A stretch of 64,000 bases of DNA from Haliotis cracherodii (Eukaryota), in assembly GCF_022045235.1 (NCBI RefSeq), contig NW_027266341.1, positions 9,982,001-10,046,000 of the forward strand, in the 5' to 3' direction. The notes beneath the pieces were generated by a model, which was not told the DNA's origin, searched no databases, and saw only the letters and a list, made by a program, of their open reading frames with translations. This document shows, piece by piece, positions 27,901 through 52,767 of this stretch. The stretch's first letter is position 1; each line of letters opens with the position of its first letter. Made by a program: the position numbers and the translations under genes.

Positions 27901-30900
27901 GTGCCTCCCAAAGTGCCTCGCCATCTGCTGGCCTCTTGAAAATGTAGATATTTAATTCCAACTACAAAACTTGTTTTTGCACATACTTGGCCAGAGTCAC
28001 TGAAGTGCACATTAAATCACTTTGCATGGACAGAGTGTCACCATCGTCACATAATGTCTTTCTTTAGGTGAGTTTAAAGTTCTTTGATAACAAAAAGGGC
28101 ACAAAATGTTTTAAAACCGATCTAAAATGCACTAACTGAATTCCAACACAGAGTTGGGGAAACTGAAACTGAACCCTCGACAATCAGCAGAAACAAAAGG
28201 TCACCGTGACTCTCTCAATCTCCATACTTTTACATAGACAGAGCATAGCTATAGCATTGCTGGGTGAAATAAAGCCCAGGACCGAACTCCTGTCTATTAT
28301 TGATTATATATTATTACCTGGTAATACTGGAATGGGGATGCGCCCCTTCTCTGTGAGGAATGCAAAGGAGTCTTCTGTTACAGGGGTATGGAAGGGGGCC
28401 TGAAAATGGCATAACAAATATCTTAATCATAATAAGAGTATATACATACAACATGTATGTGTTTTTAATAGTGATTGGCTGGATATTTTCAGTCAGCATG
28501 CAAAGGAATTGACATTCAGGATAATGAAATGTAGTTCATAAAATGATTGATCTAGGCACAGAATTACTCTCCCTCATGACTTTGATATCAACAACCAGTT
28601 AAAGAGTGTCTTTTGAAAGAGATTTCAGCATCGATCTGATAGCATGAGGCTAAATCCTAAGACAGGGGGTGTTAACTCACCCCGATCTCAAAGACGTCAC
28701 TGATAACATGGGTCTTAATCCTATGACGGGTTGTTTAAATGTTAACTCTTCCCCCTCTCAAGGTCATCTAACAGATAGCATGGGTCTAAATCCTATGACA
28801 GGTTGTTAACTCACCCCCCTCTCAAGGTCATCTGATAACATGGGTCTAAATCCTATGACGGGTTGTTAAGTTAACTCACCCCCTCTAAAGGTAATCTAAC
28901 TGATAACATGGGTCTAAATCTTATGATGGGTTGTTAACTCACCCCCCTCTCAAGGTCATCTAACTGATAATATGGGTCTAAATCTTATGATGGGTTGTTA
29001 ACTCACCCCCTCTAAAGGTCATCTAACTGATAACATGGATCTAAATCTTATGATGGGTTGTTAACTCACCCCCCTCTCAAGGTCATCTAACTGATAACAT
29101 GGATCTAAATCTTATGACGGGTTGTTAACTCACCCCCCTCTCAAGGTCATCTAACTGATAACATGGGTCTAAATCTTATGACGGGTTGATAACTCACCCC
29201 CCTCTCAAGGTCATCTAATTGATAACATGGGTCTAAATCTTATACCGGGTTGTTAACTCACCCCCCCCTCAAGGTCATCTAACTGATAACATGGATCTAA
29301 ATCTTATAACGGGTTGTTAACTCACCCCCTCTCAAGGTCATCTAACTGATAACATGGGTCTAAATCTTATGACAGGTTGTTAGCTCACCCCCCTCTCAAA
29401 GTCATCTAACTGATAACATGGGTCTAAATCTTATGACGGGTTGTTAACTCACAAGGTCATCTAACTGGATCTAAATCTTATGACGGGTTGTTAACTCACC
29501 CCCCTCTCAGGGTCATCTGACTGATAACATGGATCTAAATCTTATGACGGGTTGTTAACTCACCCCCCTCTCAAGGTCATCTAACTGATAACATGGATCT
29601 AAATCTTATGACGGGTTGTTAACTCACCCCCCTCTCAAGGTCATCTAACTGATAACATGGATCTAAATCTTATGACGGGTTGTTAACTCACCCCCCTCTC
29701 AAGGTCATCTAACTGATTACATGGGTCTAAATCTTATGACGGGTTGTTAACTCACCCCCCTCTCAAGGTAGTCTGGAAAGAGTTCACTAATAGCATGGGG
29801 CTCCACACAGGCCCCAGACAATATGTGCCCACCTGGAAAAAGGAAAAATTGATTTTTTTCCAGACAGAATTATTTGCAAGCCTAAACTTTGCATTAATTC
29901 TAACACTGATTATGACAACAATAGATTTTATCAAAGCATATTTCATTTAAAAATGTTTAATCAAAATGTTCGACTCTTCTTGTAATTGCTTGAGTACTGC
30001 TGGCTTTTAATAGTACAAAACTGTATCAAAGAAATAAACTTTTTGATCTGACGAACCAATTTCTGCTGCCTTCTCCACCAAACACACACGGAGTTCCTTC
30101 CCCTGCTCGTTGGCCATCTGTTTGAGGCGACAGGCAGCTGACAACCCTGATGGCCCTCCACCCACGATGACAACATCAGCCTCATCTGCGAAGCGCTCCA
30201 TGTCCACATCTTCAGGGAAAAGGACAGTAATTTTTAGTGAAACGTCAGTATTTTTCAAAAAATGATGAAATAGTGAATTATGTTTCATGCTGCAGTTAGG
30301 AACATTCAAACTCTGTAACGGGAGTGGTCTATTATAAATTCTTGGTGAGGAACACAAAGACCGATCCATGCATGAGAAAGAAAGCAAGAGAGAAGTTCTC
30401 TACAATCTATATGCTCCAGAATTCAGTCCAAAGATTACAACCCGTGAAGATCGGGGTAGAATAGGTCTTCAGCAACCCATGCTTGCCGTAAAAGGCGACT
30501 ATGCTTGTCGTAAGCGGCAATTAACAGGATTGGGTGGTCAGGCAAGCTGACTTGGTTAAAGCATGTCATCGTATCACAATTGCGTGGATCGATGCTCATG
30601 ATATCAATCACTGGATTGTCTGGTCCAGACTCAATTATTTACAGACCGCTGTCATATAGCTGGAATATTGCTGAGTGCGGCGTAAAACAACAAACCAACC
30701 AAAGATTACAATCGCATTAGAACGGTTTACAACATATTTACACATAATACATACACATTCAAAGAGCATCGGTGGAGCGACACTCAATCTGCCAGTCATC
30801 ACATTACAACTACATGTATCAGATACTCATTAAGCATCTTAATATGAGCCCCGAATCACATACGTTTAAATTTCTGCTACTATCATTATATAAAACTAAG

Positions 30901-34039: not shown

Positions 34040-36105
34040 TGTTATTTTCAGATGCGATGACGGCATGTTGATAAATGCTTAAATGAAAAACTATGTTTTC
34101 CTATAAATTATTGAAATTTATACACGAAAACTCTTTTCATAACGAATGTAAAGATGTTCAGTGTTATAACAATATTACGTGTTAAAAGTTGTTGCGATAC
34201 TGTATGTCGTAAACTGTCAGAGTTTTTTCCCTTGGGCCAACATTTTCATATTAATTTTCATAACTTAGCGGGTTAGTTGATTTGCACGCGTAAAGTATTA
34301 CTGGTGATGATTTTATCATTATTATTCTATTCTAAACTTATCTACTGAATGTGTTGTTTGTTTTGTGTTAGGTTCAATGACAAGAGTAATGTAGGTACGT
34401 GGAGGACTTCTAGGTTTGAAATGTGTGAACGTCCTTATTTGACGTATAAAAAATACACTGCTATGAAACCATTATTATGAAAAGTGTAAAACTTTGTTTA
34501 CGTTTTAATTGGGGTGGGGGATAGTGGGTTGGGGATCTTTCCGAGTCAGAATATATAATTTTATAAACAGTTTATTCACATAAATGTACTTGTTTCAAAT
34601 ATGAATAGCGCCATTTAGTTTTATTCTTTCATTTACTTGTTACAAAACACATTCAACCGGATAAATATGAGACGAAAAAAGTTAAACTGAATGGTTTTAA
34701 TGTTAATCTACTCAATCATTAATCCATTTATAAATACATGATAATCACTTCATTTTCATTTAATGTTGCATATTTTAAAAAATGTTTTCTTCTTTTGTTA
34801 ATCATCAATCACTTTGTACATACTATTTTGATACCCTCCGGGGCGATGGGGTAGCCTTGTGGTTAAAGTGTTCGCTCGTCAGAAGATACGGGTTCGATTC
34901 CCCGCAATGGTACAATGTGTGAAGCCCATTTCTGGTATTCCCCGGAACTGAAATACTGGAATATTGCCCAAACGGCGTAAAACTATACTCACTCACTTGA
35001 TAGACTACTCCTTACAACAAAGTAGTGGTTTTTAAAAATGGGTACTCTACATTGCTGTCGATCGAGTGAACTTAAGAATAAATATCATATATATGTTTTG
35101 AAGGGTGCAATGACATGACAAGGGGTTGCTTGCTTTCTGAAATTTAGATATTTTGTTCCACGCGCATTTGCGATATTGAGTTTACACGAATAATAAAGCT
35201 AACAGTAATTGTTAAGTAAGGGCAGGTAGATTATATATCATTTAACCCCAAACCCCACTACAAATATCGAAGGAGAAAAAAACTGAAACGAACAAACAAA
35301 AAAATAAAAATCGTCATTTGTATTTCATTATGTGTTTTTCATTTCAACAACCGGAATTTTGGAATTGTTTTGGTAAATCTTTTAAAAACATATGCCAACA
35401 AAAATTAATAAACATGAAATATGTTTGAATGAATGAATAATCATGGCAATCTCCGTACTGTGATTCAGCCACTCCAGTTCTCCACCATCCAATACCAGAC
35501 CTTGAGGGCAGCCCGAAGAGATGAAGGTCGCTGACAAGTATGGTGCATACAGACCAAGGATAGATTCAGGACAAATCAGGATTCGAACCCACGATTAGCA
35601 GATCCTGTCACGTTTAGGTAACGCAACTCTGTAATGCGGGCCATCAGTACCCCTGACTTTTGTACACATTCATGTGCTCCTTCTCAACTATAGAACTCAA
35701 TTTCCATTGCTTGTTCTAAAAACACAAAGGCCAGCAATTTTTAACAAATGTTTATTAAAAATATAGTGGCCGTATATGCCGTACATAAATAAAAAACAGA
35801 TATATGTTCATTTTCACGAGTGCGCCGTGCAATGCCGCTTTTCGTGCGTATATATATTTATTTAATACAAGATGTATTTGTAAACATTTTATGTATGAAA
35901 GAATATCGTTTATCACATGTTTGAAAAAATGAAAACTATAATAATATTATATACATATATATACTGCATCTGGAATTGTGCCTCACATACATTTAAAATA
36001 TAATGAGTATACAATTAAAACTCAGATCAATGTTCGACAAAGTTGGATTATTCAAATATCCTCTCCCTTTCGCTTGCGAAACAATAGTCTCTCTGGAGTC
36101 GCTGT

Positions 36106-36854
36106 TTATGTGACAACATAGGCCTTGTCGGCAGGGAACTTTTTCCCGAAGTTCTTCTCATACTTGTCTGCCTCGCTGGCGTAATACTCTGTTCTGTACA
36201 TCCAGATGGGAGGACAGCAGGCAGCGGACGGAACGTGGCTCTGGCCGTCGTTGTGGTAGTTGTTGGGGTTTGGCGGCGGGGGAATCAGGTCGTCCAGGAG
36301 GAAGGGCATGCTCGGGGGAGCCTGTCCTGGGTCCACATCCACCCATCTGACGAAAGGGTCATCCTCGGGGCCGTTGTAAGGTTCTGAACAAACACAGTCT
36401 ATTAACATCACATAGATCAAAAGAAATATTTACCTCATAAGCATCACGACGTAGGTGGATCCAGAGGGGGTCTCCCCGTTTGAAAACAAAATGTATGTTG
36501 CAGACCGCCCCCACCAAACACACACAAACACGCACGCATGCACACGCACCGGTACACACACACACACACACGGTGTGCCCCGTATATGTTTCTGGGTTTG
36601 TCTGGTCCATATACGTGCTGGTGGGTCTCACCAAAGTGGTAAACATCTGAGACCTGCATCACTTCGGGCTTTCTTCCCACATTAAGCTGACACGCCGTGA
36701 CATAACATAGCAACGTTAAACCCAATTCACTCTCTCACTTACTCACTCATTCGCCTGCCGAAATACAATGAGTAAAAGAGTCGCACTTACCCAGGGATTT
36801 CTTGAATTTCTTGATTTCATGTACCGCCATGGCGAGAAAGGTCAGAAATATCAT
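36106..36854 (-). CDS. Uncharacterised small protein, paralog A (113 aa), 2 coding exons
   Basis: Exons 36791-36854 and 36106-36383 (GT-AG, phase 1); putative non-coding exon with donor at 37161/37162; AATAAA at 35751-35756. Protein MIFLTFLAMAVHEIKKFKKSLEPYNGPEDDPFVRWVDVDPGQAPPSMPFLLDDLIPPPPNPNNYHNDGQSHVPSAACCPPIWMYRTEYYASEADKYEKNFGKKFPADKAYVVT. Exon structure, reading frame and stop position are shared with paralog B. Confidence 0.8.
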
Positions 36855-37244
36855 CTTGGTTTGAGGTTCTGGAAAACAACAACAACTTTAGAAAGGTATT
36901 TCGTTCTTCAAAGAATAACGAAATAAATAGACCGCCCTATATCCTTTTGGTATTTGTTCTGATGCTAGCATCTTCGATAATGGTCAATAAGACAGTATTT
37001 TGTTACACAGATAAAACTCTTATCAAAATATATTCTGACTGAAATATTAATTTCATTTTAACGCTACGTCAATAAATTTCAATTTGACCAAGATGAATAT
37101 GAAAGCACAGCTAAACAGTTAAGCCAACTGGCTCACAGCAACAAACGCGTCCATAGCTCACCTTTTCCAGATTAAAGGGTTCAGATTTCCCGCTCTGATG
37201 TACTTGTATGTCTGACAGCATCGACACCTTCAGCTGGTCTGATT

Positions 37245-37320
37245 GTTGTGACGTCATAATCAACGTCACATGACTCTACGTATCCACTTGGCCTGGCAGG
37301 CACATTGTGACGTCATACAG
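37245..37320 (-). promoter_or_regulatory. Paralog A upstream region: two CRE palindromes and an E-box-like site
   Basis: TGACGTCA at 37249-37256 and 37308-37315; GTCACATGAC at 37265-37274. The first CRE and the E-box align with the paralog B promoter. Confidence 0.55.
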
Positions 37321-37518
37321 TAAGTAAAGATCCCTCTCCCGATAGTGTAGAAATTTGTCTGTTTGATTTTATTTGTATAAAAGCGGTCTACAAAAGCCTA
37401 TATGGAGAAGCTATTTGACGTATATAGCCCTCCATGTGGTCGTGTACACCAAAAGTGGAAGTGTCCGCTACGAAGGGAAAGTTTAAATTTGTCATTCGGT
37501 CTAGCACTGTGATACATA

Positions 37519-38377
37519 TACTCAACAACAAAAGTTCTACAGTGGTGCAGACAGCGTCTACGCGGGACGGCCATGCAGTGGGGACAAGTTCTATTCACTG
37601 ACGAGTCTCGTTTTCACCTCAGCCACAGCGATTGACCGATTCGAGTGTACCGACATCGAGGTGAACGTCAATCATTGTGTCGTGGAAGAAGATCGGTTCG
37701 GGGGCGGCAGCGTTATGATATGGGGTGGGATAACAGCAAGACAGAGGACCCGTTTGATAGTGGTAGAGGGAAATCTCAATGGACAGCTCTACCGCGACGA
37801 GATCATCGGCCCTGTTGTTCTACCGTTTTTGCGTCGTCATGGCCCAGGCATTACCTTTCAACATGACAACGCCTGGCCTCATATTGCTCGACTTGTTCAG
37901 GATTCCCTTCAACAAAACAACGTGAATGTCATCCCCTGGCCGGCTCGCTCCGCTGATCTCTCACCAATCGAGCACATGTAGGATGAGATGGATCGGCGCC
38001 TACGACGTCAACCACGTGTTCCACAGACACTCCAGGAACTTCGAAACATGCTCCAGCAGATATGGACAGATATCCCACAGGACCTTGTGCGACGCCTGGT
38101 CCATTCCATGAGACGAAGATGTGTTGCTTGCATCGCAACCAGAGGTGGACACACACGCTATTGATTTGTAAATTGACATTTTGGCATGTTCATGTTTTTT
38201 GGGTTTTTTTTTTTTATGAAATCACGCATTTTCTGAAGTCAGGATGGCAAATTAAACCATTTGAACACGTACAGGAGTCTTTTATTTGTTGTAAACCGAA
38301 ATTGTTTCAGAGTTGGTTAAAAACATAACTTTGCATTAAATCTGATTCAATGTCACAGGAACTTTTGTTGTTCAGTA
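37519..38377 (+). mobile_element. Internally deleted Tc1 (DD34E) DNA transposon
   Basis: TIRs TACT(C/G)AACAACAAAAGTTC with TA TSDs. Transposase remnant VLFTDESRF, GGGSVMIWGGI, FQHDNA-(34 aa)-PIEH, GGHTRY, with stops and a frameshift; the N-terminal half is missing. Confidence 0.93.
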
Positions 38378-41300
38378 TATATCAAATAACATTGAATTGT
38401 ACCGCATATATTCCATACTGTTAAATGAAATATCGTCACAAACTCCAGTGTCAATTTTCTGCTTCCTTGGTGCAGGAAAGTAAATACAAGACTATTTCTA
38501 GATAATGTGGCCTTGGAACTATATGTTGTAATGTGGCAGTAGAGATTTGTTGTTGTAAATGTAGTAGTAGTAATTGTGACAGTAATCAGTGGCAGCAAGT
38601 GATTGGTGGGGTAGTAAAATGTCAACTGGTATTTAGAGTTACCGCCCTTTTTTACTGATCATGGCAGACTTGATCATTCGAGAAGCCTCGGTATTGAACC
38701 GTTTCTGGAAGGCTGGTTGTACCTACATAAGGGCGAATCGAGTTGACATGTGTTTTATCGACTTGCCAAGTACCTATTTGAAATTAAAAATAGACAAAAC
38801 ATTTCCATAATAAGGGCGAATCGAGTTCTTTTATGACTTGACACGTGTTTTATCGACTTGCTAAGTGCTTATTGGATACCCATTTGAAATTATTTTTTAA
38901 AAAAACAAACAACATTTCCATAATCATAAGAAACCTCTACTACAAGCAGAGTTCGAATCCGACTACATCATGAGCGTGTGTTCATGAATCACTATCAAAT
39001 AGTGATGATACCAGGTGCTCGTGAAAAGTGGGCGTATATGTTGCCTCAACTCTGGCACTCGTCACAAATACATGTAAAGGCAAGCCAATTGTTCACTCAA
39101 TTTAATTAAAATCAGATCTGGCTACTGCTACACACTGATCTATATTTGTTTAGCTGCAGTGTGAACCAAGATCTGATTTGTTCAGTGAGATTGATTGTAT
39201 ACCTAACAATACCATTTTTCTCACTGAAGCGTAAAATTTGGAAATGTCCTCCACATGTTTGTATCCAGACTAGATATTTTCTCAGCTACAGGTACAAAAC
39301 GATAAAGGTTGTTTTTCTATTTAGAACTATGAGCCTGAATTCTTTTTAACGAAAAACACCTTGCAACAATATTAATTTTTGTGGCACGCAATTTCATTTT
39401 TTGAAGCATAATTTTCAAGAAGCTCTATCTAGCGACAATATATACATTTCGATAAAATCTTGCCTGAATGTCTTGTCTCCACATTTCACATAGATGTTAT
39501 CAGTGAGGAAGTCCAGCAATTCACATATTGTTTTCTCAGTAACATCCACATGAAATTTTGTAAAACACTGAATTCCTGCCAGCTTCCATTACTTTTCCGG
39601 ATTCAAGAACAGACACAGGCCTGTTTCAAGCGTTGAAGATATTCGACAGTGACCAATGGATATTGATAACAAACAGTCATGTGGACCAATCATCTGTTAT
39701 TTATATGATAAAGGCATTTACAAGCATTCAGACAAAATAGGGAAGGCACACCTTATGGATCATCTTTGTTGGAGAAATTTAAGGAACCCGTAATCAACGT
39801 CTATTTTCCGTAGTGAAAACGTGAAAACTGTAATGATTTCCTTTAAGGTAATTAAAGATTACTTAATCTTGTAGTGGCGAAGTGACGATTTACATTTTTC
39901 ACAAATTTTTATAATATCCTCACATCCTTAAGTAATCGGGATTATTTTTTTTATTAAAGTACTACTAATCTTACAACCATTCTTATTGGTTTAACTGGGA
40001 GGGGGGGGGGGGGGGGGGGGGGATGTAAACAGAGAACATACCTTTTGATTGTTAGGACTTCTTTTTCACTTCTGATATTCATACGCCAACTCTTGACTTC
40101 TCATCCTCAAGAGTCGCCGAAATGACAAGAGTGGGTCACCAATGGAATTGCAGTTTTGTGCATGTAAATGATTTTGTTGTTACACAATTTATTAATTCAA
40201 ATGCAGTGTCTGTAAGGGCTAGGGGAAACACCATTCACAGCATGGTATAGTGAGAGTGTTTCTGTAAACAGACCAGGGATTATTTGGCCTCATGTTTTGT
40301 TTGTTTGTTGTTTAACGCCGCATAAAGCAATATTCATGCTATATAACGGCGGTCTGTAAAAAAAATCGAGTATGGACGAGAAAATCAAATGATTGCCGTC
40401 ATGAGCATCGATCCACCCAATTGGGATACAATGACATGCATCAACCAAGTCAGCGAGCCTGACCACCCGATCCCGTAGTTGACTTTTACAACAAGCATAG
40501 TTGCCTTTTACGGCAAGAATGGGTTGCTGAAGATCTATTCTACCCCGGATCTTCACGGAGTCGCAGACACATTATAAAGACACTGCCTTAATTCTCTGTA
40601 CGGAATACACGTGTAGGTAACTTGAGAATGCTCTGTCTGTTCTCATTCCCTGTATTGTTTCTGTATTCCCTTCACACATTTCATCTCAACTGAATGGACA
40701 GTTTAACGGGTGTAACAGAAAAACCAGAGTGCCATCATGACGGTTACGATTGATTGCGTACAACCAACTAATACCTCAGTGGTTAAATCCCCTCAACATC
40801 TTTTGTGGCAGAACACTTCATTCGTAATGTGCAGACTGCGCGGGTTCGAATTCTTCTGCCGACACACGATTTCCATCAAATTGCTAGTAGTGCTGTCATT
40901 GTCAAAAGGTCTCTTACTGACAATTGCATGGTTATGCATAACGATTCGAAAAATACGCAAATATGGCGAAACTTCAATTTCGTGTTTGATGTGAAAACTC
41001 GACAGAGAGGCATGCACGTACAACTCCGCTGTTTAATGACACGCCAATTGTAACTCTCTGACATGATGCAGTCAAGTGCAGCCATATGATGGATGTATCG
41101 GTCTCAAAATAACTAAAAAATTAATTGTGCAGCAATCTAGTCTAACAGCGCCAAGCCAAAAAAAAACTTGTTGCAATCAAGTGCACCCTTACGCTGTTTG
41201 CGACACTTCTTAATCTGAATTGATTTGAGTCATGTGACGATGCAAGGGTGTGTGATATCGCCGGATCCCACCGCATTCACTTTGCAACGATCTATTAATC

Positions 41301-41534
41301 AAGTCCTTCTCATTATTGTAGCGAAATGTCTGATATACACTCTAGAATTCAAGGCGTCTTGGAAATATATTATATATCTAATTCTTATATAAATACACCA
41401 GCATGTATAAGACACGTTTCGTGTTAAAGCAAAAGATAGAAAGGCAATCTTAAGCAAACGACAATGCACGTATTTCCCATTCATTCGTAAATGAACACAA
41501 CGCAACGATGACAAACTCGCTGAGTAACTACTTA

Positions 41535-41565
41535 GTGCCACGTGAGGTTGATTATGACGTCACAA
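41535..41565 (+). promoter_or_regulatory. Paralog B upstream region: E-box and CRE
   Basis: CACGTG at 41539-41544 and TGACGTCA at 41555-41562, about 80 nt before the first donor site. Confidence 0.55.
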
Positions 41566-42096
41566 GCAGCGGGAGGTGTCGATGCTGTCAGACATACAAG
41601 TAGATCGGTGCGGGAAATTTGAACCTTATAAACTGGAGTAGGTGAGCGATGGACGCCATCTGTTGCTGTGAGCCAGTTGGTTTAACTGTTTAGCTGTGCT
41701 TTCATATTTCCATGTAGTTTCTTGGTCAAATTGAAATTTATTGACGTTGCGTTAAAATGAAATTAATGTTTCAATATATTTTGATAGAGTTTTATCTGTG
41801 CAACAATTACCTATTATCGAAGATGCTAGCACTAGAACAACTCTTCAGATCCGCTCACATAGTCCCTCAATAATCTGTCCTTAATGGATGTTTATTGCCA
41901 TAGTGAAAACTCAATGTTTTAATCTCTTACCCAAATAATGTTTTATGACTGAGTATTTGAGTGCCACGAATCTACTGGATCCTGTACTTTAGTCGACATG
42001 GGGTAGTCTTAGTTCCTTAATTATTCTTTCTGTTTGGAGAAATAAATACGTCTTCATAGCTCATTTGTTTTATACTTCAGAGCGTGATTGGTCAAG

Positions 42097-42787
42097 ATGA
42101 TTCTAATGACCTTTCTCGCCATGGCGTCCCAAGAAGTCAAGAAATTCATGAAGTCTCGTGGTAAGTACTCCACTAAAGTATTGTCACGTGTCCTCTATCT
42201 GTCATAGAGCAATCAAATTCTCGATTTTCACGAGAGGGGCATCCTAGTATCTAGCAAATAGTTCCCGCAAAAAACCCAACTCTTTCCATTTCCACTCCTA
42301 AGAATCGGCGTAAATCTCTGGGTACATTTAGCTAAGCGATCTTTGTATTAAGTGTATTTGTCGGACCACATCATCAACGTGCTACACGTGACTCAAATGA
42401 CGACACGTGACAATGAAAGGAAAGGCGAATGTGTGAGACAGAAAAGCAAATCCCAAGACTAAAATCGATTACACAGAAGAAATAAAAATACAGGATGCTA
42501 ATGAAGTAATTTTTTTTATTTAATTGAATCCATATGGCGTTAATAGCATAATTGCGTTTGTTTTAGAGCCTCACATCGGCCTTGAGGATAACAGTTTCAA
42601 CAGATGGAGGGATATGGACCCAGAACAGGCTCCCTACCTCCTGGACGACCTGCTCCCACCACTTCAGCACCCCAACAACAACGACAACGAGGACGACGGT
42701 CTGTTCACTGCCTACCGCCCTCCCATCTGGATGTACAGAACAGAGTATTACGTCAGTGAGGCAGACAAGGCCTTCGTTGTGACATAA
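42097..42787 (+). CDS. Uncharacterised small protein, paralog B (94 aa), 2 coding exons
   Basis: Exons 42097-42160 and 42567-42787 (GT-AG, phase 1); putative non-coding exon with donor at 41641/41642; AATAAA at 43157-43162. Protein MILMTFLAMASQEVKKFMKSREPHIGLEDNSFNRWRDMDPEQAPYLLDDLLPPLQHPNNNDNEDDGLFTAYRPPIWMYRTEYYVSEADKAFVVT. Confidence 0.8.
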
Positions 42788-45061
42788 ATACAGTACTGGC
42801 TCCAGAAAAAAGTAGTGCCGTTTGCGTGTGGTGCACTGGCGTTTAATAATTTTACAATGGAATTTGAAGGTCACAGAACACTGATAACATGCGTATTTAA
42901 TGTTCAATGCATTTTGATATTTGTTAAAACCAGATTCAGTATTTATAATACTGAATGAATCCGTCATATGATGTTATTTACAACTTTACAATAAGCCATA
43001 TTGTCCGTCATGAAGCGATAACATATTACAGAATATATTTTTATTTGCTATTTTTTAATGAACATTATTGTTACAAATGGCCTTCTTTGTTTTCCATGTA
43101 GTATTCCAAGATACTGTAATCTCTTTTCATTCATACATGTACAGAACGTTTGTTTTAATAAATATCTCTCATGGTTCAGTGAAAGTGTTGCCATAGAAAC
43201 AAAACTGAGGTCATGTTTATTATGTGTTGCAAGCTTCATTTTTATGTCATCAAATCTCCTTTCCAGATATTAGCGACTGACCTACAGAAGCAATGTTCCA
43301 GATTTTGTTCAGTTACTTAATTTTGCCCAGGTGGGATTCTGTGTTAGAACAGGTCTCAAGTGATATAAGCTTGTTGCTTGGTGACTGTTTCTTCCATGTT
43401 ATCGAACCCTGATGGCATGGGACATTGCTCATTGTATCAATCACTGGTTTGTCTGGTCAACTGGACTAGTACATGACTATGAATGCACAATGCCATATAG
43501 AAAGTGGTCAAATGTAACAAATGTTATATTTGGGATAATACTTTCTTAGTAAAGTACAGATTCTCATCCTGATTTGGGTTGAGTCCCGTAATCTTGCACT
43601 CTTGTATAACGACATACAAATAACAACACATCATAATCTGTGACAATTCGCAGGATGAACAGGACTTTTACGAGAAAGAGTATACTGATAAATCAATTTA
43701 CAAAGTCATTAACAATTTCACAATGGTGCATCCCCGTGGTGCCCAGTTCCAATTAACATAAACAAATGGACTCAATGGTAATATCTTTATTTACATGATA
43801 TATATGATGTATGTACAAAGTCTGCCACATTAACTGACAATGCATCAAACACAGTACTGATGTAGAAAATAACAACCTTGGACATCAGGAAGTACGCAAC
43901 AGTTAATCAAACTATCAGTTGGATCCATCCATGGCCAAATGACAAATTACCACTGATACTGCATTGCTGCATTGGCAAAAGATCCGTGAAGATCCAGGGT
44001 AGAATAGATCTTCAGCAACCCATTCTTGCCGTAAAAGGCAACTATGCTTGTCGTAAAAGGCGACTAATGGGATCGGGTGGTCAGGTTGCTGACTTGGTTG
44101 ATGCATGTCATCGATCCCAATTGTGTGGATCGATACTCATGATGTCACTCACTGGATTGTCTCGTCCAGACTCCATTATTTACAGACCGCCGTCATATAG
44201 CTGGAATATTGCTGAGTGTGACATAAAAAACAAACAAACAAAGCATTGGTAAAGTACAAACAGATATCATGACAAGAAAAAATACTGATGACTGTCCGAA
44301 ATGCACCTTGTTTGCAGAGACGTGTGGGTAATATACCCAATATGTTGCAAATTCATATCAAACAAAAACAGCTGTACCAATATTTGCGTTAGACTATAGG
44401 ATCAGAAAGAAGTGTAACCAAGCGATACAAGCAAACAGCTTGAACATCTTATATTGATAGATGCAGTAGTGGCAATGACAAACATTTTCAATATGCTTAC
44501 CATGTTGAAAATTATGAATCCGTGAGCATGTTGTGACACAATTGCTTGAGACAAATGCATTTTGACAGCTTATAAAAAAATAAAAATTCAGAATAAACAA
44601 AAACTGGATAATCAAAGCGATATGGAGAATATATATATATATCATATATATATACAACATATCAATTGTCATTACATACTTTTTCATAATTCCATACTTT
44701 AAACTGCATAATGAGCAATAGGTTAATATTGTTCTTATGGCTGCTGTTTAAAATTGAATAAAAATTCTATGAGAATTACTTGACACAATAGCTGGAATAT
44801 TTGGCCATGTGGTTTAGAGGAGATGTCAAAATGTTACACAACAGATGGACATACAATGCATCACACCATGAGATCACATGTGAAGAGCATTGCAAGACTG
44901 TTTAATATCTAAGCCACAACATTTGTATCAAAATGCATAAAGTTCTTAGCTGGAGTAACAGGGACAACAGCATCGTAAGTTAAAAAGTTTGATTTCACAA
45001 TTCACAGAAGCAACTGAATAATTTATAGATGTTTATAATATATCAAGATGCAGGAACAAGG

Positions 45062-45512
45062 CTCTAGGTCATCGCTTCTTGAAAGTACAAGGATCTAGGT
45101 CATCGCTTCTTGAAGGTACATTGATCCAGGTCACTGTTTCTTGTAGACACACATGGGTCCATAATATCGCTACTTGGTGATACATTGATCCAGAAAATCG
45201 TTCCTTGTAGACACATGGATCTAGGTCATCGCTTCTTGAAGGTACATGTGTCTAGGTCATTGCTTCTTGAAGGTACATGTGTCTAGGTCATCGCTTCTTG
45301 AAGGTACATGTGTCTAGGTCATTGCTTCTTCAAGGTACATGTGTCTAGGTCATTGCTTCTTGAAGGTACATTGATCTTGGTCACTGCTTCTTGAAGATGA
45401 ATGGATCCAGGTAACTGTTTCTTGTAGATACGTGTCCAGAAAATCACCTTCTTGAAGATACATGTCCAGGTCATCGCTATCTTGGTTATCGCTTCTTGTA
45501 GATACAGGGGTC
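45062..45512. repeat. 31-bp tandem repeat (about 14 copies) of the RRP8 terminal codons and stop, in the 3' UTR
   Basis: Minus-strand unit resembles CTAGATCCATGTACCTTCAAGAAGCGATGAC; the true gene end is CTGGACCCCTGTATCTACAAGAAGCGATAAC. Confidence 0.9.
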
Positions 45513-48500
45513 CAGTTCAATGCTTGAGTTGAGAGGGGCTTCCTTCATTCCACGCACCTTCTTAAAGTGGAACAGGTAGAACATCTTGTTGGAGGTGTCC
45601 TGAAATATTATTAAGTTGTCATTGTGAAGTACTTGAATCAACAAAGGACCATTTCTTTGTCACAAAATGCAACAATATCTCAAATGTCAACCCCATAGAC
45701 CTGATAAACAGGAAATGTGGGATTAAAACCCTGAACCAGCATATTCTGTCATCGCTAAGGCATAGACTGTCTGACTATTGATCAAAATAGCTTCCAACAT
45801 CAGGGTTTAACCTTGACTACATGGGATCCCCAATAATTAGTTATAAGGGTCCTTGCATGGAATATGAGGGTCCTGTAAAGTAGTGAAATGGTGTTGTGTA
45901 CTGTACGTTTGGATAATTACTTTAGAGCCTGAATGAATCAATGATCATGTGGACAGTGGCCATGATTGATGGAAGAAATGACAGATGCCCATAACTGCTC
46001 CTGTTGCACTGTAGGTACAATGAACATTACTGTGCATCTCTTTGGATGCAGGATGTACCCAATCTCAACATTTGTGCATACAGGATGCACATTTCTGCGT
46101 CGCATAAAACCCTGCAACATCAATACTCTCTTGCATCCAATGAGATTTGCAGTGGATATTATTTCCATCTATTATCAAAATCCTGATTATCCTTTAAAAT
46201 TACCATCCATTCCACATTTTCATCAAAACCATCCCCAAAACCACCATGAGCAAGACCTACCTTGTTGACAATTTCAAATCCAAGTTTTTCAACTTTTGAT
46301 ATGAAAGCACCAACTTTCTGAAAACGACTCTCAACTTCAGCAATCATCATTACGCCCCTGAAACAACAAAACAAACAATATTCAAAATAAGTGAAAGTTG
46401 TTTAACTCCACAGTCAGCAAGATTTCAACTATATCATGGCAGCCTGTAAAAAATCAATGTGGACCAGTAAACCAGTTGTTGACTCCATGAGGGTGAAATA
46501 TCACTGAAGGTGTTATCGTCGGCACAGATACTACAGAAATGTACCCCAGGTACGATTTTGTATACAGAAATGTACCCTAGTCAAAATCAAAATACAGTAG
46601 ACTACGGCTATAACGAACTCGAGAGGACCACTAATTTTAGTTCATACTAACCGCAGTTCGTTATATGCATACATACAGCATATATACAACAAATGGTCGG
46701 GACTAAAAATAAGTTTGTTATATCCGTCAGTTCGTTATAAGCGTGTTCGTTATAAACATAGTTTACTGTACAGAAAAAGTACCTGGTACCCGAAACGGCG
46801 GGTGAGTCCATATTCCCCAACATTAAACCAAAACCAGTTCATGTTTAGTTCCAGTTCGCCTGATTAGTATGATTACGAATGTATGCATGCATCGCGAATA
46901 TTGCCAGATTATTACATTAATGTACGTACGTCACTGTGTGTGATTGTTTCCTATATGATACGCTGGAATGCAGCTTAATTCAAAAGCTTCGCCTGACGAA
47001 CGCATACTGCCACGTTAAATGTAACGTGGTTTGGCTACAGGAAGTGACGAATACCTAAAGAACCGATTACAAGCATTGCGCCCTTCAACGGAAAGGACTC
47101 AACCTAGGGTACGTTTCTGTATTTTGATTTTGGCTAGGGTACATTTCTGTATACAGAAACGTACCTGGAGTATATTTCTGTAGTACCTGAGCCGACAATG
47201 ACCCCCTTCAGCTCAGGTGACACCTTGTACCCACCAAATCCTCATTAGTCTTCCAACAAGCAGTGGGCAGTGAGACCTATCTCCACAGGGTGTAGACTAT
47301 TCACAAAAACAAAATGTCACAATCTCATTAAAATCAGATCTTAGTTTTCGCTACTGCAAAACAAAGATCTGAGGACATCCCTTCATGGGTCACTTCAGAA
47401 TGATCAAAAGATCATTCTGGAATGACTTATAGTTGGCCTAGATTGTATGGATATAATCATAAAACCTGTAACTGTCGTTCGGAATACCCTCTGTTAAATA
47501 TTTCGAGGTTGCATAGTTAGAAATCACATTCCGACTGTCACTTTCATCATCTGGTAAGCGACGCTCTGATTGGTTGGATGAAAGGTCGCTCTGATGTGAC
47601 CCGTAATGGGATGTCCTCAGATCTTTGTTTAGCGGTAGCGAAAACTAAGATCTGATTTTAATGAGATTGCAAAATGTCACTGTGCTGTATAACCCATGAT
47701 AGAGTTGTCAGTTTTAAAGCAACACTTCTTGGTATGATGAAACAAAAGATGAGCTTTCAGTTACAACCTATTATCCAAATCAAAATCTAACATAACTGCA
47801 AATATGATTCTTATAGTTTAACTTTCTTTCATCCCTGACTGAACATGCTGAACATAGTAAAAGTCTTACCCTTTTTTGAGAATCCTGTTTGCTTCCAGTA
47901 GGTAGTCAACAAGATTTGTGCCCATCAGTGACAGACAGAACACAGCTACATCCACACACCCAGCATCTAGGGGCACCTGCATATACAACATAGTTAGAAC
48001 CATCAGAGACAGACAGAACACAATTCATCCACACACCCGGCATCTAGGGGCACCTGCATATACAACATAGTTAGAACCATCAGAGACAGACAGAACACAG
48101 CTACATCCCCACACCCGGCATCTAGGGGCACCTGCATATACAACATAGTTAGAACCATCAGAGACAGACAGAACACAGCTACATCCCCACACCCGGCATC
48201 TAGGGCACTGCATATACAACATAGTTAGAACCATCAGTGACAGACAGAACACAGCTACATCCACACACACGGCATCTAGGGGCACCTGCATATACAACAT
48301 AGTTAGAACCATCAGTGACAGACAGAACACAGCTACATCCACACACACGGCATCTAGGGGCACCTGCATATACAACATAGTTAGAACCATCAGTGACAGA
48401 CAGAACACAGCTACATCCACACACACGGCATCTAGGGGCACCTGCATATACATCCACACACCCGGCATCTAGGGGCACCTGCATATACAACATAGTTAGA

Positions 48501-51500
48501 ACCATCAGAGACAGACAGAACACAGCTACATCCACACACCCAGCATCTAGGGGCACCTGCATATACATCCACATACCCGGCATCTAGGGGCACCTGCATA
48601 TACATCCACACACCCGGCATCTAGGGGCACCTGCATATACATCCACACACCCAGCATCTAGGGGCACCTGCATATACATCCACACACCCAGCATCTAGGG
48701 GCACCTGCATATACATCCACACACCCAGCATCTAGGGGCACCTGCATATACATCCACACACTCGGCATCTAGGGGCACCTGCATATACATCCACACACCC
48801 GGCATCTAGGGGCACCTGCATATACATCCACACACCCAGCATCTAGGGGCACCTGCATATACATCCACACACTCAGCATCTAGGGGCACCTGCATATACA
48901 TCCACACACCCAGCATCTAGGGGCACCTGCATATACATCCACACACCTGGCATCTAGGAACACCTGCATATACAACATGTGTTGATATAAACTGTTTACC
49001 ACATAAAACCACTTACCTTTGACATATCACACGCAGTGACTCTTTCATTGACTGAGACAAGGTCAAAGGAATGAACTTTGACCCCAGAGATACTTTGAGC
49101 CAGTCTTGCACTTCCACATCCTAAATCTGCAATGACAGTCTTTGGGGTTCTGAAAAAATACAGTCCAACATTATCATGTTCATAAGCATACTATCTATGG
49201 TTGTCTCGCTTGTCTCAGACTTACAGTTAGCGTTGGGAATCAATTGGGAATTTATCATTTATCAGTTTGTTCAAACTTGTTAGTTTCTATTACTTAAAAT
49301 ACTTGATTTGTTGAATATTGATGATCATGATGATAAATATGTGTTCATGTGTAATTGTTCACAGATCAAAAAAATGTTCGAATACCGTATTTTATATATT
49401 TTGAATAAATAATATTCAAAGGGGAATCCTGGTTAGAATTGGTCCATAGCAACCTATCCTTGTTGGAACAGGCAACTAAATCGATCGATGATCTTCCTCA
49501 GTGATTTAGTTGATTGCGTGCCATCACTCCCTGACAATCTGAAATGCTGCACACATTAATCACTGGATCCCCTGGTCCAGACCTAATTCTATACAACCTG
49601 TCGCCATACAGCCAGAGTAAGCTTTTAAGTTTGGTTTAACACCGTTTTGAACAGCATTCCAGTTATTATTACATCAAGGTGAGACAGATTGATGTGGGAA
49701 GGGATGCATGTCTCAGACGTTTACCATTTCAGTGAAACCCATTAGTGGGTATGGTGCAGACAAACCTAGAAGCATAAACTGGCGAACCAGGACTCGAACC
49801 CATGATCATCATAGGTCTCTGGCGTGCCCAAGGTAGGTAACTCTGCACACAGAATTGTAGCACCTTATTGCTAGAATATTCTGAGTGTGGTGTTAGACAA
49901 CAAAAAAAAAAAATGTGTGACCTTACTTATGCCTGGCGTTGATCTCGTTGATGATGATGTCCAGTGGATCGATTGGCCACTTGCTGACCTGTGACCTATA
50001 ACCTTCGTGATATACATGGAAGGCCTCCTCATCATCAGCAAACAGCTGCGCCGCCTCGGTGCCCGTTGTGGTGTACATCTGCTCATTGAGATAGCGGAAC
50101 CGCGCAGCTGACAGGCGTTCATGCATCCTGTCTGTTAAAGACTTCCCTTGGTTCCTGTCTCTCCTTTTCACTTTCTTCTCGAGGTCCTCCTTCAGAGTGT
50201 CCATCTTTTTCTTCTCAGAGGACATAATTTCTTTCAATTTCTTCACATCAAAATTTTCTTTTGGGGGAGTTTTTATTTTCGCGGGACTGCTTGAGGTGTC
50301 ACTTGTACCGTTTGTAAAACCCTTCTTTTTATTCACCTTCTTAGGTGTTTCTGTAACCTCCACTGATTTTCTCTTTTCTGTTTGTCCATTACCAGAATTT
50401 GTTTTCTTCACAGACTGTTTCTTATCAGAGGAAATGATCTCTTTCAATTTCTCCAAATCGAAACTGTGTTTCTTGGGAGTCTTCAACTTCGACACATTCC
50501 CAGAAACATCACTCTCAGATTTTGACTTTTTTTTCTGCTTCTTTCCACCACCACTTTTTTCAACAACATTATCTTCTGAATTCTCATCAGTTCTATTTTC
50601 ACTAAGTGTAGAGACATTCATATTCACTTTTTTATTTTTCACCTGTGGACTTGGACGATCAGAAACCTCTAAATTCTTCTTACGTTTCTTTTTCTTCTTT
50701 TTGTCTAAAGATTGTCCACTAACTGGCTTAGTTTCGCCAGTATCACCCATGTTTTTCTTTAACAAAACAAATTGGCCTTTCACATCTGGGTCTGAAGCTA
50801 CAGCCACACTGCTTGTGCTCCCATCGGTGCTGTCCGATTTTTTACTAGCATCAGCTAGATGTTTGTATTTGTTCTTCTTACATGTCTTCTTCTTATGCTT
50901 GTGTCTTCTTTCCTTCCTTGTCAGGGGGGTATCCCCTCCAACTCTACTTTCATCCTGCCCCTGGGTTTCTTGAATGTTTAGCTTCTTAGATGCTGACTCA
51001 TCATCTTTGTCTTTTTCTCTACTTATTTTTTTCCTTTTTAATTTCTTCTTCTTGTCACCTTGGGAATTTTCAGACTGATCAGGTTTTGCAACATTTTCTT
51101 GTGAATTAGGCACATTTTGTTTCTTTTTCTTCTTTTTCTTTTTAGCTTTTCCCTCGCTGCTGATATCCCCAGCACTTTCTGGAGATACTGATATTTTCTT
51201 CTTCTTCTTCTTGCTCACTGAATGACTGTCCTTGTGAAGGTTTTGTTTTCCAGATTTTGCTACTACTGGTGTAATGTTTGTATTTCTCTCCTCACTGTTC
51301 TTATTTTTCTTTTTCTTCTTCGGCGTAGGACTGGTTTCGTCAGCATGTTTTCTCTTCACGGGAGACTTTGTGTCACTGGTGTTTGACAAGTTTGGATCAG
51401 AATGCTTCGACTTCTTTTTCTGAAAATACAAGTGTAATCAAATATGTTTTTTCAGAGCAGATTTCAGTGAATACTGGACCCATTACCGGTAAATATGATA

Positions 51501-52767
51501 ACCCAGGCATAAGATATATACAGTCAAGTCCCATTAATCTGACATTGTTGGTTGCATATGATTATGTCGGATTAACGAGTATGCCAGATAAACAAAATTA
51601 GGTAGTACAAACAATCGTGATTGAAAATTAGACAACTACACGATAGATAACGATATGAACACCTAGGAAAAGGAAAAGTGAAATATACATATTGTTGAGT
51701 TACATTGTCAGATTTTCTAATCATGCAACCACTAAAGTAACACAAAACTACTGTTAAGGACTGTCTGAGCGATTCAAACTTGACTGATTTTTAAAGCATA
51801 GATTTTGTATCCGATTTTAATGAGATTAGGTAATCTAGGCAAGTGATTAATCTGTTTTGTTTATTTAAAGCAGTAATTGTTTATTGTTAAGCAAGTTTAT
51901 CTCTGCAGCAGTTGAAATATGCAGCTACTCGCTGCGGGGCTGTGTACTTGCGGGCAGATGACCATGGAGTACGCTGATCACTGTGTTGGATTAATGAGAC
52001 TGATTAATGAGTGATTTCAGCAATTCGTTGCAAATTAGGTGTGTCGGAGTCGGAGTGCGAGACTGTCGGATTAATGGGTCTAAATAGCACTGATTAAATC
52101 GGTTCCCATCATTTGTGTCGGATAAAGCCGATTGTCAGATAAACGAGTGTCGGATTAACAAGACTTGACTGTATACAACCATGGGATCCCATTTGCTCAG
52201 AAATGTTTGTTTGCTGTGAAACGCTGTACTGGTACTCAGCAATATTCTAGCATTGGGCCAATCACACAGAGACACAGATATATGACAGATATTATGAGCA
52301 CCGATCAACGCTGTTGGGGTACGATGACATGCATTCAACCACTAAGCCTGCTCAAATTAGTAAGTGTTTCAATGAGTGAATGAGTGAGTGAGTGAGTGAG
52401 TGGATGGGTGAGTGAGTGAGTGAGGAAGGATGGCCTTCCAACAATGTACCCATGCAGGGAATTGAACCCAGGCATGACTAGTGAATACTTTAACCACTAG
52501 GCTACCCCACTACCTATTGTTCAATCTGAAGCACTGAAGTCACAGTTTGTGATATGTAAATTAATAATATTTCTTACATCAAGTAAGACCTTAACAAGTA
52601 GCATTGATGTTGTATAAGTGGACTTTCAGTAAAATGCCCACGGCAAAAGAATCTTTCCTGACATTACTGACCTTATTTCTCGGAGGAGTTGGTGTGACAG
52701 GGTCAAACAGAGAAGACGCAAGATGGGCCGCCTCGCCATCCACATTCCAGTCCTCGTTGTCAAACAT
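45486..52767 (-). CDS. RRP8: Ribosomal RNA-processing protein 8 / nucleomethylin (SAM-dependent rRNA m1A methyltransferase); complete, 6 coding exons, 679 aa
   Basis: Exons 52672-52767, 49927-51419, 49017-49149, 47870-47976, 46261-46357, 45486-45599; GT-AG, total 2040 nt. Motifs [25 protein letters not shown] motif [30 protein letters not shown] and terminal PCIYKKR. Long Lys-rich N-terminal region. Confidence 0.96.
46504..47211. mobile_element. MITE with TIRs of about 100 bp, carrying a nested Tigger-like MITE (46595-46768)
   Basis: Outer TIR CTGAAGG..TTATCGTCGGCACAGATACTACAGAAAT... is mirrored at about 47105-47211. The inner CAGTAGACTA...TAGTTTACTG element with TA duplication splits the left TIR. 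Confidence 0.8.
47320..47669. mobile_element. Long-TIR MITE with 10-bp TSD (Mutator-like)
   Basis: TIRs of about 80 bp starting CAATCTCATTAAAATCAGATCTTAG; TSD CAAAATGTCA (47310-47319 and 47670-47679). Confidence 0.85.
47923..48980. repeat. Compound minisatellite (78-bp and 37-bp units) containing the RRP8 acceptor site and exon start
   Basis: About 20 copies of minus-strand ATATGCAG|GTGCCCCTAGATGC; it fills nearly the whole intron 47977-49016. Confidence 0.95.
51521..52171. mobile_element. Tigger/pogo-like MITE in an RRP8 intron
   Basis: TA|CAGTCAAGTC...GACTTGACTG|TA termini and repeated GTCGGATTAA subterminal motifs. Confidence 0.8.

What the first reader, a model, noticed from the sequence alone, without database searches (positions are those of the whole stretch)
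35750..43165. Divergent pair of unrecognised small-protein paralogs between ETFDH and RRP8
Seen: two inverted three-exon genes share a 64-nt first coding exon, a phase-1 intron, frame-preserving indels and the same stop position. Conserved blocks are TFLAMA..E.KKF.KS, RW.D.DP.QAP, LLDDL.PP and PPIWMYRTEYY.SEADK..VVT. The ORF track shows only the last exons. I recognise no family. Inference: a lineage-restricted microprotein family under purifying selection, with a short hydrophobic then basic N-terminus (targeting or secretion signal) and short linear motifs in a Pro/Asn-rich linker.
Basis: partly seen in the sequence, partly recalled or inferred. Interest (0 to 1): 0.75.

Follow-up and report, generated by a model that had tools for sequence, protein, structure and literature searches.

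The report
Abalone-only fast-evolving small protein pair
Two head-to-head, spliced genes encode related small proteins found so far only in abalones, and they likely act as stress-switched, unstructured binding proteins inside the cell with a short patch that likely changes fast between species; their job is untested.

Summary
The pair is real. The spliced reading frames match RefSeq 'uncharacterized' Haliotis cracherodii proteins of 113 and 94 residues letter for letter. Contigs of public runs join the predicted exons (gene A 4 of 4 runs, gene B 3 of 4). Homologues were found only in Haliotis; Pfam, PDB, ESM Atlas and Foldseek gave no family. Plain purifying selection is only partly right. 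Paralogue dN/dS is 0.57 (bootstrap 0.32-1.13). All 10 listed coding differences in gene A exon 3 against relatives' contigs are non-synonymous, and 6 of 9 in the one fully listed contig lie in residues 67-81. H. rufescens gene B carries five A-type residues, which suggests gene conversion. Each copy has its own CRE-containing promoter. A 188-nt block of intron 1 is 93% identical between the copies, more than their coding sequence. A secretion signal is doubtful and there is no transmembrane helix. Best reading: a CRE-driven, disordered intracellular adaptor or decoy with conserved motifs beside a diversifying patch (0.35). A resemblance to Engrailed EH1/EH2 motifs fails membership tests and remains a bold lead. 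This is a new orphan family of a familiar kind, of modest interest.

The parts
37308..37315 (.). Full CRE palindrome, distal, gene A promoter
   Evidence: 8 in the window against 0.86 expected; 3 of the 8 lie at these two genes
37249..37256 (.). Full CRE palindrome, proximal, gene A; aligned with the CRE of gene B
37162..37265 (-). Gene A exon 1, non-coding for the main frame; 5' end approximate; holds an upstream ATG whose 25-codon frame stops across the main ATG
   Evidence: donor; exon 1-2 join in X1 and X2; upstream frames; 5' reach estimated by hand from the depth table
36955..37161 (-). 5' part of gene A intron 1, 93% identical to the same part of gene B
   Evidence: 14 differences in 188 aligned nt
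36791..36868 (-). Gene A exon 2; ATG at 36854; codes the hydrophobic-then-basic residues 1-21
36384..36790 (-). Gene A intron 2, phase 1, 407 nt, with a high-copy repeat at about 36571-36706
36106..36383 (-). Gene A exon 3 coding part, residues 22-113 and stop
36283..36303 (-). Conserved acidic-hydrophobic motif, residues 49-55, [FY]-[LH]-L-D-D-L-[ILV]
   Evidence: present in 7 of 7 aligned proteins
36205..36249 (-). Hypervariable patch, residues 67-81
   Evidence: 6 of 9 changes against X7; scan P 0.025 for a 15-codon window
36181..36210 (-). Conserved aromatic motif, residues 80-89, P-x-W-M-Y-R-T-x-Y-Y
   Evidence: invariant in 6 of 6 A and B proteins except x
35857..35862 (-). Candidate poly(A) signal of gene A; a second one lies at 35751-35756
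   Evidence: contigs of X2 and X4 stop at 35849 and 35851, a weak hint only
37505..38164 (+). Broken DDE transposase (Tc1/mariner-like) fragment in the spacer; not part of either gene
   Evidence: Pfam DDE_3 E 2e-5, below its cut-off; many contigs per run; in-frame stop
41555..41562 (.). Full CRE palindrome, gene B promoter
41537..41641 (+). Gene B exon 1, inferred from homology to gene A; its 19-codon upstream frame stops at the exon end
   Evidence: no contig cover
41642..41839 (+). 5' part of gene B intron 1, partner of the 93% block
42081..42160 (+). Gene B exon 2; ATG at 42097
42161..42566 (+). Gene B intron 2, phase 1, 406 nt
42567..42787 (+). Gene B exon 3 coding part and stop; lacks a 39-nt stretch near 42764-42768 that contigs of X1 and X4 keep
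   Evidence: table 5c
43157..43162 (+). Candidate poly(A) signal of gene B

Best explanation
These are two spliced abalone paralogues from an old inverted duplication, and they likely encode CRE-induced, mostly disordered intracellular proteins that would bind partners through short conserved motifs while a neighbouring patch likely diversifies under conflict. Shown: gene models, splicing, separate A and B lineages across Haliotis species, CRE sites, conserved motifs, an excess of amino-acid changes in residues 67-81. Predicted: no stable fold, with one N-terminal helix. Inferred: CREB/ATF factors switch the genes on under cAMP or stress signals; the Met-Ile start is acetylated (NatC class) and the hydrophobic-then-basic residues 1-21 tether the protein to the cytosolic face of a membrane or to a hydrophobic groove; the acidic motif at 49-55 and the aromatic motif at 80-89 dock on conserved host proteins; the variable patch meets a fast-changing ligand, most likely from a pathogen. 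Occasional gene conversion between the inverted copies would spread new variants.
For: Gene models and splicing. AlphaFold2 mean pLDDT 51.8, pTM 0.19, only residues 1-20 near 70; the Atlas model of P0008 has pLDDT 0.35. No transmembrane-strength window; net +3 in residues 1-21 and -8 to -10 in 22-75. Met-Ile or Met-Leu start in 6 of 6 proteins compared (P0009 taken from residue 44), a NatC class in PMC6063853 (passages). Three full CREs at the two promoters, 8 in the window against 0.86 expected. 10 of 10 listed exon-3 changes in A and 3 of 3 listed in B are non-synonymous; neutral probability 0.018-0.041 for the 13. Inside residues 67-81 pN is 0.18, outside 0.018. Residues 1-21 are identical in P0003 and P0005. 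Five A-type residues in H. rufescens B, one of them found only in the two H. rufescens proteins.
Against: No expression, localisation or binding data. The selection signal is thin: the four runs share most changes and so amount to about one comparison; gene A alone gives P 0.04-0.11 against neutrality; clustering is significant for one of three window sizes (P 0.025, 0.083, 0.27), and the patch exceeds the 3' UTR rate at P 0.013-0.34 depending on the run. Exon 2 differences and 6 of 9 gene B differences were not listed. Low pLDDT may reflect an alignment of only 6 rows. Amphipathicity is not above shuffles (325-4289 of 5000 reach it). The constancy of residues 1-21 is not significant (P 0.35). 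CREs are common in promoters of many kinds (own knowledge). PMC3626706 says in its title that NatC acetylation is not a general determinant of localisation (search listing only). Independent C-terminal deletions in two gene B lineages also fit relaxed constraint.
Confidence: 0.35

Rival explanations
1. Weakly constrained, partly dispensable duplicates: the proteins are made but drift at close to the neutral rate, and gene conversion keeps some blocks alike.
For: Exon 3 pN over all sites is about 0.044 (9 changes in 204 sites), near the lower 3' UTR estimate of 0.05. The paralogue dN/dS interval includes 1. Gene B lost 13 residues in the window and 4 in H. rufescens. A third copy in H. rubra diverges after residue 82.
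Against: Frames, splice sites and stops are kept in all A and B proteins; A is still 85% identical between H. cracherodii and H. asinina; intron 2 and 3' UTR are unalignable between paralogues (47-50%) while exon 3 is 81% identical; changes outside residues 67-81 fall below the UTR rate (P 0.008-0.12).
Confidence: 0.2
2. A gamete or gonad protein that evolves fast under sexual selection, working like the disordered acidic abalone sperm protein FITZAP (sp6).
For: Small, acidic in the middle, predicted disordered, duplicated and fast-evolving, as FITZAP is in PMC6952181 (passages); tandem duplication of sperm proteins is known in abalone (PMC9022041, abstract).
Against: No N-terminal poly-Asp, no clear signal peptide, no sp6 or lysin-family name among the hits. 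Gene A transcripts were joined in 4 of 4 runs from 4 studies, though those runs were chosen for holding the sequence and their tissues are not given.
Confidence: 0.15
3. A secreted peptide precursor: residues 1-10 are a very short signal peptide and the Lys-Lys pair at 15-16 is a convertase site.
For: Residues 1-11 average 2.1-2.6 on the Kyte-Doolittle scale and Lys-Lys at 15-16 is kept in 6 of 6 proteins.
Against: No basic n-region, and the only small-residue cleavage pattern would leave a 10-residue signal, shorter than usual (read by hand, own knowledge). Basic residues follow the hydrophobic run, which favours a cytosolic C-terminus (own knowledge). No conserved cysteine pattern or amidation site.
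Confidence: 0.12
4. A homeodomain-less microProtein that carries Engrailed-like EH1 and EH2 motifs and sequesters Groucho/TLE or PBX in the nucleus.
For: Residues 80-88 share 5 of 9 positions with the EN1 EH2 peptide printed in PMC5976472; score 28-32 of 70 in the six A and B proteins, reached by 0-4 of 3000 shuffles. A loose EH1 spacing pattern at 49-55 is present in 7 of 7 proteins, upstream of the EH2-like motif as in Engrailed.
Against: The comparison was picked after the fact from memory. The first Trp of the WPAW start, required for PBX binding according to bioRxiv 10.1101/2023.03.14.532566 (section 9), is Pro here. The strict EH1 pattern fails at this site; 7-13% of shuffles of the A and B proteins match the loose one. 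Four unrelated peptides in 84,679 residues of the window's six frames score as high. P0009 scores only 19. No homeobox protein appeared in any search.
Confidence: 0.07
5. A transposon remnant, haplotype duplicate or other artefact.
For: A broken DDE transposase fragment lies between the genes.
Against: Spliced joins at canonical sites; both copies annotated in two species; 65% protein identity between copies; few contigs per exon position against many on repeats.
Confidence: 0.02

Closest known systems
RefSeq uncharacterized proteins XP_071087127.1 and XP_071088147.1 (H. cracherodii), LOC124146960 and LOC124146973 (H. rufescens), XP_067661578.1 (H. asinina), LOC124281880 (H. rubra)
   Same: The first two are identical to the window's spliced frames; the rest are homologues.
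   Different: They are automatic models without a name or function; no paper in the library cites five of these accessions.
FITZAP (sp6), abalone sperm protein
   Same: Small, acidic, disordered, fast-evolving, abalone lineage (PMC6952181, passages).
   Different: FITZAP has a signal peptide and an N-terminal poly-Asp run and is cut by furin to 3-4 kDa; no such run is present here and no search linked the two.
Engrailed EH1 and EH2 motifs
   Same: Spacing of hydrophobic residues at 49-55; Pro, second Trp, Tyr, Thr and Tyr at 80-88; same order.
   Different: First Trp absent, CTRY run only half kept, no homeodomain, hydrophobic N-terminus not known in Engrailed (own knowledge).
NatC-class proteins with an N-terminal membrane-binding helix (Arl3/ARFRP1 type)
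   Same: Met-Ile/Met-Leu start and a predicted N-terminal helix.
   Different: No GTPase domain, and the helix is hydrophobic then basic, not significantly amphipathic.
Taxonomically restricted (orphan) genes as a class
   Same: No homologue outside one genus; short; fast-evolving; duplicated. PMC7162840 puts orphans at 10-30% of eukaryotic genes (start of abstract).
   Different: This family shows a local amino-acid hotspot, signs of conversion and a promoter block better kept than the coding sequence.

Membership tests
Any Pfam family | HMM match above the gathering score | tested here: not met
   0 families at E up to 10 for P0003 and P0002; 0 at E up to 1 for P0004, P0005, P0007, P0008, and one at E 0.17 below cut-off for P0009
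FITZAP (sp6) | N-terminal poly-aspartate run behind a signal peptide, both in exon 1 | tested here: not met
   feature from PMC6952181; the N-terminal coding exon here is net +3 with no Asp run
FITZAP (sp6) | Acrosomal location and binding to lysin or sp18 | not testable with these tools
   no tissue or binding data
Engrailed EH2 motif | WPAW start with both tryptophans | tested here: not met
   first Trp is Pro in 7 of 7 proteins; requirement
Engrailed EH2 motif | Similarity over the rest of the motif | tested here: inconclusive
   5 of 9 core identities; 0-4 of 3000 shuffles, but chosen after the fact and matched by 4 unrelated window peptides
Engrailed and related ANTP proteins | Homeodomain downstream of the motif | tested here: not met
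   stop at residue 113 or 94; no Pfam match
EH1 (Groucho-binding) motif | F/Y/H first, then hydrophobic residues at positions 3, 6 and 7 | tested here: inconclusive
   loose pattern in 7 of 7; strict pattern (I/V/M at position 3, recalled) fails at this site in 7 of 7; 7-13% of shuffles match the loose one; F/Y/H rule from PMC4901127
Single-pass membrane microprotein | 19-residue hydrophobic segment | tested here: not met
   best mean hydropathy 0.68-0.72 in A and B, 1.18 in P0009, under the usual 1.6 (own knowledge)
Classical secretory signal peptide | Basic n-region, hydrophobic core, cleavage site about 15-30 residues in | tested here: inconclusive
   core present; n-region absent and cleavage fit only after residue 10 (read by hand); SignalP not available
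NatC substrate class | Met followed by Leu, Ile, Phe or Trp | tested here: met
   6 of 6 proteins compared; rule from PMC6063853; 28% of human proteins fall in the NatC/E/F class, so this is weak
NatC substrate class | Actual N-terminal acetylation and membrane targeting | not testable with these tools
   needs mass spectrometry and imaging
Transposable element fragment | High copy number or transposase domain | tested here: not met
   two copies in the window; few contigs per exon position; no Pfam match; genome-wide copy number not testable
Known non-coding RNA in the conserved intron 1 block | Rfam match or covarying structure | tested here: not met
   0 Rfam matches at E up to 1; 0 of 51 predicted pairs with changes on both sides in 2 sequences

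The most novel reading that the evidence does not exclude
The pair encodes homeodomain-less microProteins that present a Groucho-binding EH1-like motif and a PBX-binding EH2-like motif in Engrailed order, are switched on through CRE sites, and act as inducible decoys for developmental co-factors, with the residues next to the key tryptophan in an evolutionary arms race and new variants spread between the inverted copies by gene conversion.
Probability: 0.07. Interest if true: 0.75.

Novelty: new member of a known kind. Interest (0 to 1): 0.3.

Why it matters
Mollusc genomes hold many unnamed lineage-restricted genes, so one more pair is not surprising in itself. This pair is a clean, testable case: exact gene models, spliced transcripts in several studies, and a short patch where amino-acid changes pile up between abalone species. 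If the conflict reading holds, it would be a candidate immune or stress effector in a genus hit by disease, including the endangered black abalone. If the EH1/EH2 reading held, it would be an animal microProtein built only from co-factor-binding motifs. The locus is also a small example of inverted paralogues whose promoter-side block is more alike than their coding sequence.

Tried and rejected
No whole genome is held, so genome-wide copy number was not counted. Homology searches found nothing outside Haliotis and one unnamed contig protein: word-indexed searches gave 1, 3 and 5 hits (near lengths only); phmmer of gene A exon 3 over 1.84 billion representatives gave 2; viral contigs 0 of 16 and metagenome contigs 0 of 121 candidate stretches confirmed; phage records none; PDB sequences none under E 0.7. 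ESM Atlas: no usable hit for P0003; for P0008 best feature score 0.84, under the 0.9 bar, and the parvovirus and CRESS helicase clusters at 0.81 and 0.77 were dropped as chance. Foldseek on the low-confidence model: none at E 0.001 in PDB or viral libraries. Homodimer prediction for P0003: no answer, score 0.03, alignment not used; no evidence either way. No RNA holder was listed on record as RNA, and gene B exon 1 had no contig cover; neither blank is evidence. A frameshift in the tail of P0009 was tested by back-translation: best match at the expected residue 85, but 30 of 300 shuffles scored as well, so unproven. Amphipathic helix: not above shuffles. Hidden RNA gene in intron 1: no Rfam match, no covariation. 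A conserved upstream-ORF peptide: lengths differ (25 and 19 codons) and X1 has other letters at the end of exon 1, so not supported. C4orf46/RCDG1, recalled as the small human gene beside ETFDH: no Pfam match and different gene orientation; recalled, not fetched. LIR, clathrin-box, paxillin LD, dileucine and IAP-binding motifs were checked by eye against recalled consensus patterns and did not fit across homologues. Literature: 0 papers for five accessions; 0 for four peptide motifs; one search was swamped by an unrelated word; searches listed nothing on these genes; 2 supplementary files of PMC13229213 held none of six terms, and I did not check whether they use RefSeq accessions. Earlier findings of this scan: none.

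Full report
1. Observation. The window holds two inverted, head-to-head copies of one small gene. Gene A (minus strand) has an exon 1 donor at 37162, exon 2 at 36868-36791 with its ATG at 36854, a 407-nt phase-1 intron and exon 3 from 36383 to the stop at 36106. Gene B (plus strand) has exon 2 at 42081-42160 with its ATG at 42097, a 406-nt phase-1 intron and exon 3 at 42567-42787. Each exon 2 carries 64 coding nt. The coding gaps are 12, 6 and 39 nt. The spliced frames equal P0003 (113 residues) and P0006 (94 residues), which NCBI lists as uncharacterized Haliotis cracherodii proteins. Pfam supports ETFDH on one side and RRP8 on the other.

2. Splicing. I laid 4 of the 22 listed runs; they come from 4 studies and 3 coded organisms, are kept as contigs, and are RNA only by the tool's guess. 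The exon 2-3 join of gene A is in 4 of 4, that of gene B in 3 of 4, and the exon 1-2 join of gene A in 2 of 4. Exon 1 of gene B was not covered and rests on homology. Whether the joined forms also exist as DNA was not given. Listed exon positions are covered by one contig in most runs, while the repeats in intron 2 and the spacer are covered by many, which argues against a transposon origin.

3. Range of the family. Three word-indexed searches, one full phmmer scan, and scans of viral contigs, metagenome contigs and phage records returned only Haliotis proteins and one unnamed contig protein. The set is gene A in H. cracherodii, H. rufescens and H. asinina; gene B in H. cracherodii, H. rufescens and P0007; and a divergent H. 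rubra protein, P0009, 50% identical over 82 residues. A and B separate at 100/98 support (7 rows, two of them trimmed, midpoint root), so the duplication likely predates the split from H. asinina. Pfam, PDB sequences, the ESM Atlas and Foldseek gave no family. For a short, fast-evolving protein these blanks do not prove absence in other molluscs, and no mollusc genome could be searched directly.

4. Selection. Between the paralogues dN is 0.204 and dS 0.358 over 94 codons; the ratio is 0.57, bootstrap 0.32-1.13. Against the relatives' contigs, all 10 listed coding differences in gene A exon 3 are non-synonymous. For X7 the list is complete (16 of 16: 7 in the UTR, 9 coding); for X1 it covers 19 of 20; for X4 18 of 22; for the coding piece of X2 8 of 9. 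Seven of X7's nine residues equal those of H. rufescens P0005, so these contigs are orthologues of A. Nine of nine has probability 0.0001-0.0004 under dN/dS 0.2 and 0.06-0.11 under neutrality. With the 3 listed gene B differences (3 of 9, all non-synonymous) the neutral probability is 0.018-0.041. Six of the nine X7 changes fall in residues 67-81 (pN 0.18 against 0.018 elsewhere); the scan P is 0.025 for a 15-codon window and 0.27 and 0.083 for 10 and 20. The UTR rate is 0.05-0.10; the lower figures assume all unlisted differences lie in the UTR. Residue 81 is Ile, Ser, Val or Met in different species and Leu in X1 (two changes read together by hand), inside an otherwise invariant block. The runs share most changes, so this is close to a single comparison. 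My reading is a conserved scaffold with a likely diversifying patch; relaxed constraint is not excluded.

5. Conversion and decay. In the C-terminal half H. rufescens gene B matches gene A at five positions where the other B proteins differ or are gapped, and Ser81 occurs only in the two H. rufescens proteins. That suggests recent conversion from A to B, or a faulty gene model. The 5' part of intron 1 differs at 14 of 188 sites between the window's copies, against 18 of 63 synonymous sites (P 5e-5), while intron 2 and the 3' UTR align at 47-50%. This block is either converted or under regulatory constraint; it has no Rfam match. Gene B in the window lacks 13 residues that X1, X4 and P0007 keep, and H. 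rufescens B lacks 4 at the same place.

6. Protein anatomy. Residues 1-11 are hydrophobic, 12-21 basic, 22-75 acidic and proline-rich, and the C-terminal part holds the aromatic block. No 19-residue window reaches transmembrane strength. AlphaFold2 on 6 rows gives mean pLDDT 51.8 and pTM 0.19, with helices at 2-21, 31-36 and 81-100, only the first near 70. Amphipathicity of residues 7-21 does not beat shuffles. Six of six proteins compared start Met-Ile or Met-Leu, the NatC class (PMC6063853, passages), a common class. Met9 is invariant in 7 of 7 rows (in P0007 that part is translated intron) and lies in a strong start context in both genes, so a form without the hydrophobic run is possible.

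7. Regulation. Each gene has its own copy of the promoter; they lie about 4.3 kb apart with a broken DDE transposase between them. The full CRE palindrome occurs 8 times in the window against 0.86 expected, twice at gene A and once at gene B. CREB/ATF control by cAMP or stress is inferred from knowledge of this site and is untested. Both first exons carry upstream ATGs; in gene A their frame stops across the main ATG, in gene B before exon 2.

8. Mechanism. The reading I commit to (0.35) is an inducible, mostly disordered intracellular protein, tethered by its N-terminus, that binds conserved partners through the motifs at 49-55 and 80-89 while residues 67-81 face a changing ligand, most likely from a pathogen. 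Gene structure, splicing, conservation and the pattern of substitutions are shown; disorder is predicted; induction, location, partners and the source of selection are inferred. Rivals are drift with conversion (0.2), a gamete protein like FITZAP (0.15), a secreted precursor (0.12), an Engrailed-like microProtein (0.07) and artefact (0.02).

9. Comparison with known systems. FITZAP has a signal peptide and an N-terminal poly-Asp run (PMC6952181, passages); these proteins lack the run, so they are not members, though small, acidic and fast-evolving alike. PMC9022041 was seen as abstract and outline only. From memory I noticed that the two best-kept blocks resemble Engrailed EH1 and EH2. Against the EN1 peptide printed in PMC5976472 (passages) the core has 5 of 9 identities, and 0-4 of 3000 shuffles score as high. 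But the first tryptophan, required for PBX binding according to bioRxiv 10.1101/2023.03.14.532566 (passages and section 9; figures and supplements not visible), is missing. The EH1 match needs a loosened pattern (PMC4901127, passages), four unrelated window peptides score as high, and there is no homeodomain. Membership fails; working like a co-factor decoy stays a low-odds lead.

10. Literature and novelty. No paper in the library holds five of the accessions or four peptide motifs. Topic searches listed nothing on these genes. PMC13229213 (passages and 2 supplementary files) and PMC9936805 (passages) did not mention them in what I saw. Subscription papers and most supplements were not searched, and expression tables there may list these genes. 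Earlier findings of this scan gave nothing. The family appears undescribed, but it belongs to the familiar class of genus-restricted, fast-evolving small genes.

11. Verdict. Observation confirmed; interpretation partly supported; new member of a known kind; interest 0.3. The boldest reading not excluded is an inducible EH1/EH2 decoy microProtein (probability 0.07, interest 0.75 if true).

Noticed in passing
window 3458-3542: Three full CRE palindromes within 85 nt, with further near-matches, and a fourth at 2305; possibly a promoter or a repeat end.
   Followed up: no
window 45938-52800 (minus) and 55460-60000 (plus): RRP8 and an ankyrin-repeat gene that I read as ILK lie head to head; I recall the same pairing in human, which would make it an old microsynteny (names and human order recalled).
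   Followed up: partly
window 37505-38164: Broken Tc1/mariner-like DDE transposase in the spacer, covered by many contigs in all 4 runs.
   Followed up: partly
window 36955-37161 and 41642-41839: Non-coding block 93% identical between the paralogues, higher than their coding sequence; conversion or a regulatory element. A TATA-like hexamer lies just before the gene B exon 1 donor, so an alternative start inside this block is possible.
   Followed up: partly
window 37219-37221 and 41582-41584: Upstream ATG in both first exons; in gene A the frame overlaps the main start codon, which could dampen translation, while X1's gene A contig ends exon 1 with gene-B-like letters.
   Followed up: partly
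P0009 (H. rubra XP_046573852.1): Third, divergent copy with a 43-residue N-terminal extension that resembles a translation of exon 1 and a tail that departs after Trp82; possibly a frameshifted copy (test not significant).
   Followed up: partly
window 42764-42768: The 39-nt stretch missing from gene B lies between two short direct repeats in gene A, as in a slippage deletion.
   Followed up: no
window 36571-36706, 40292-40559, 43983-44228, 30449-30706: Two families of high-copy interspersed repeats with very high contig depth.
   Followed up: no
window 45025-45525 and 47871-49044: Tandem arrays with 31-nt and 37/78-nt units inside or beside RRP8.
   Followed up: no
window 61132-61318: Run of 187 N, an assembly gap outside the finding.
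   Followed up: no
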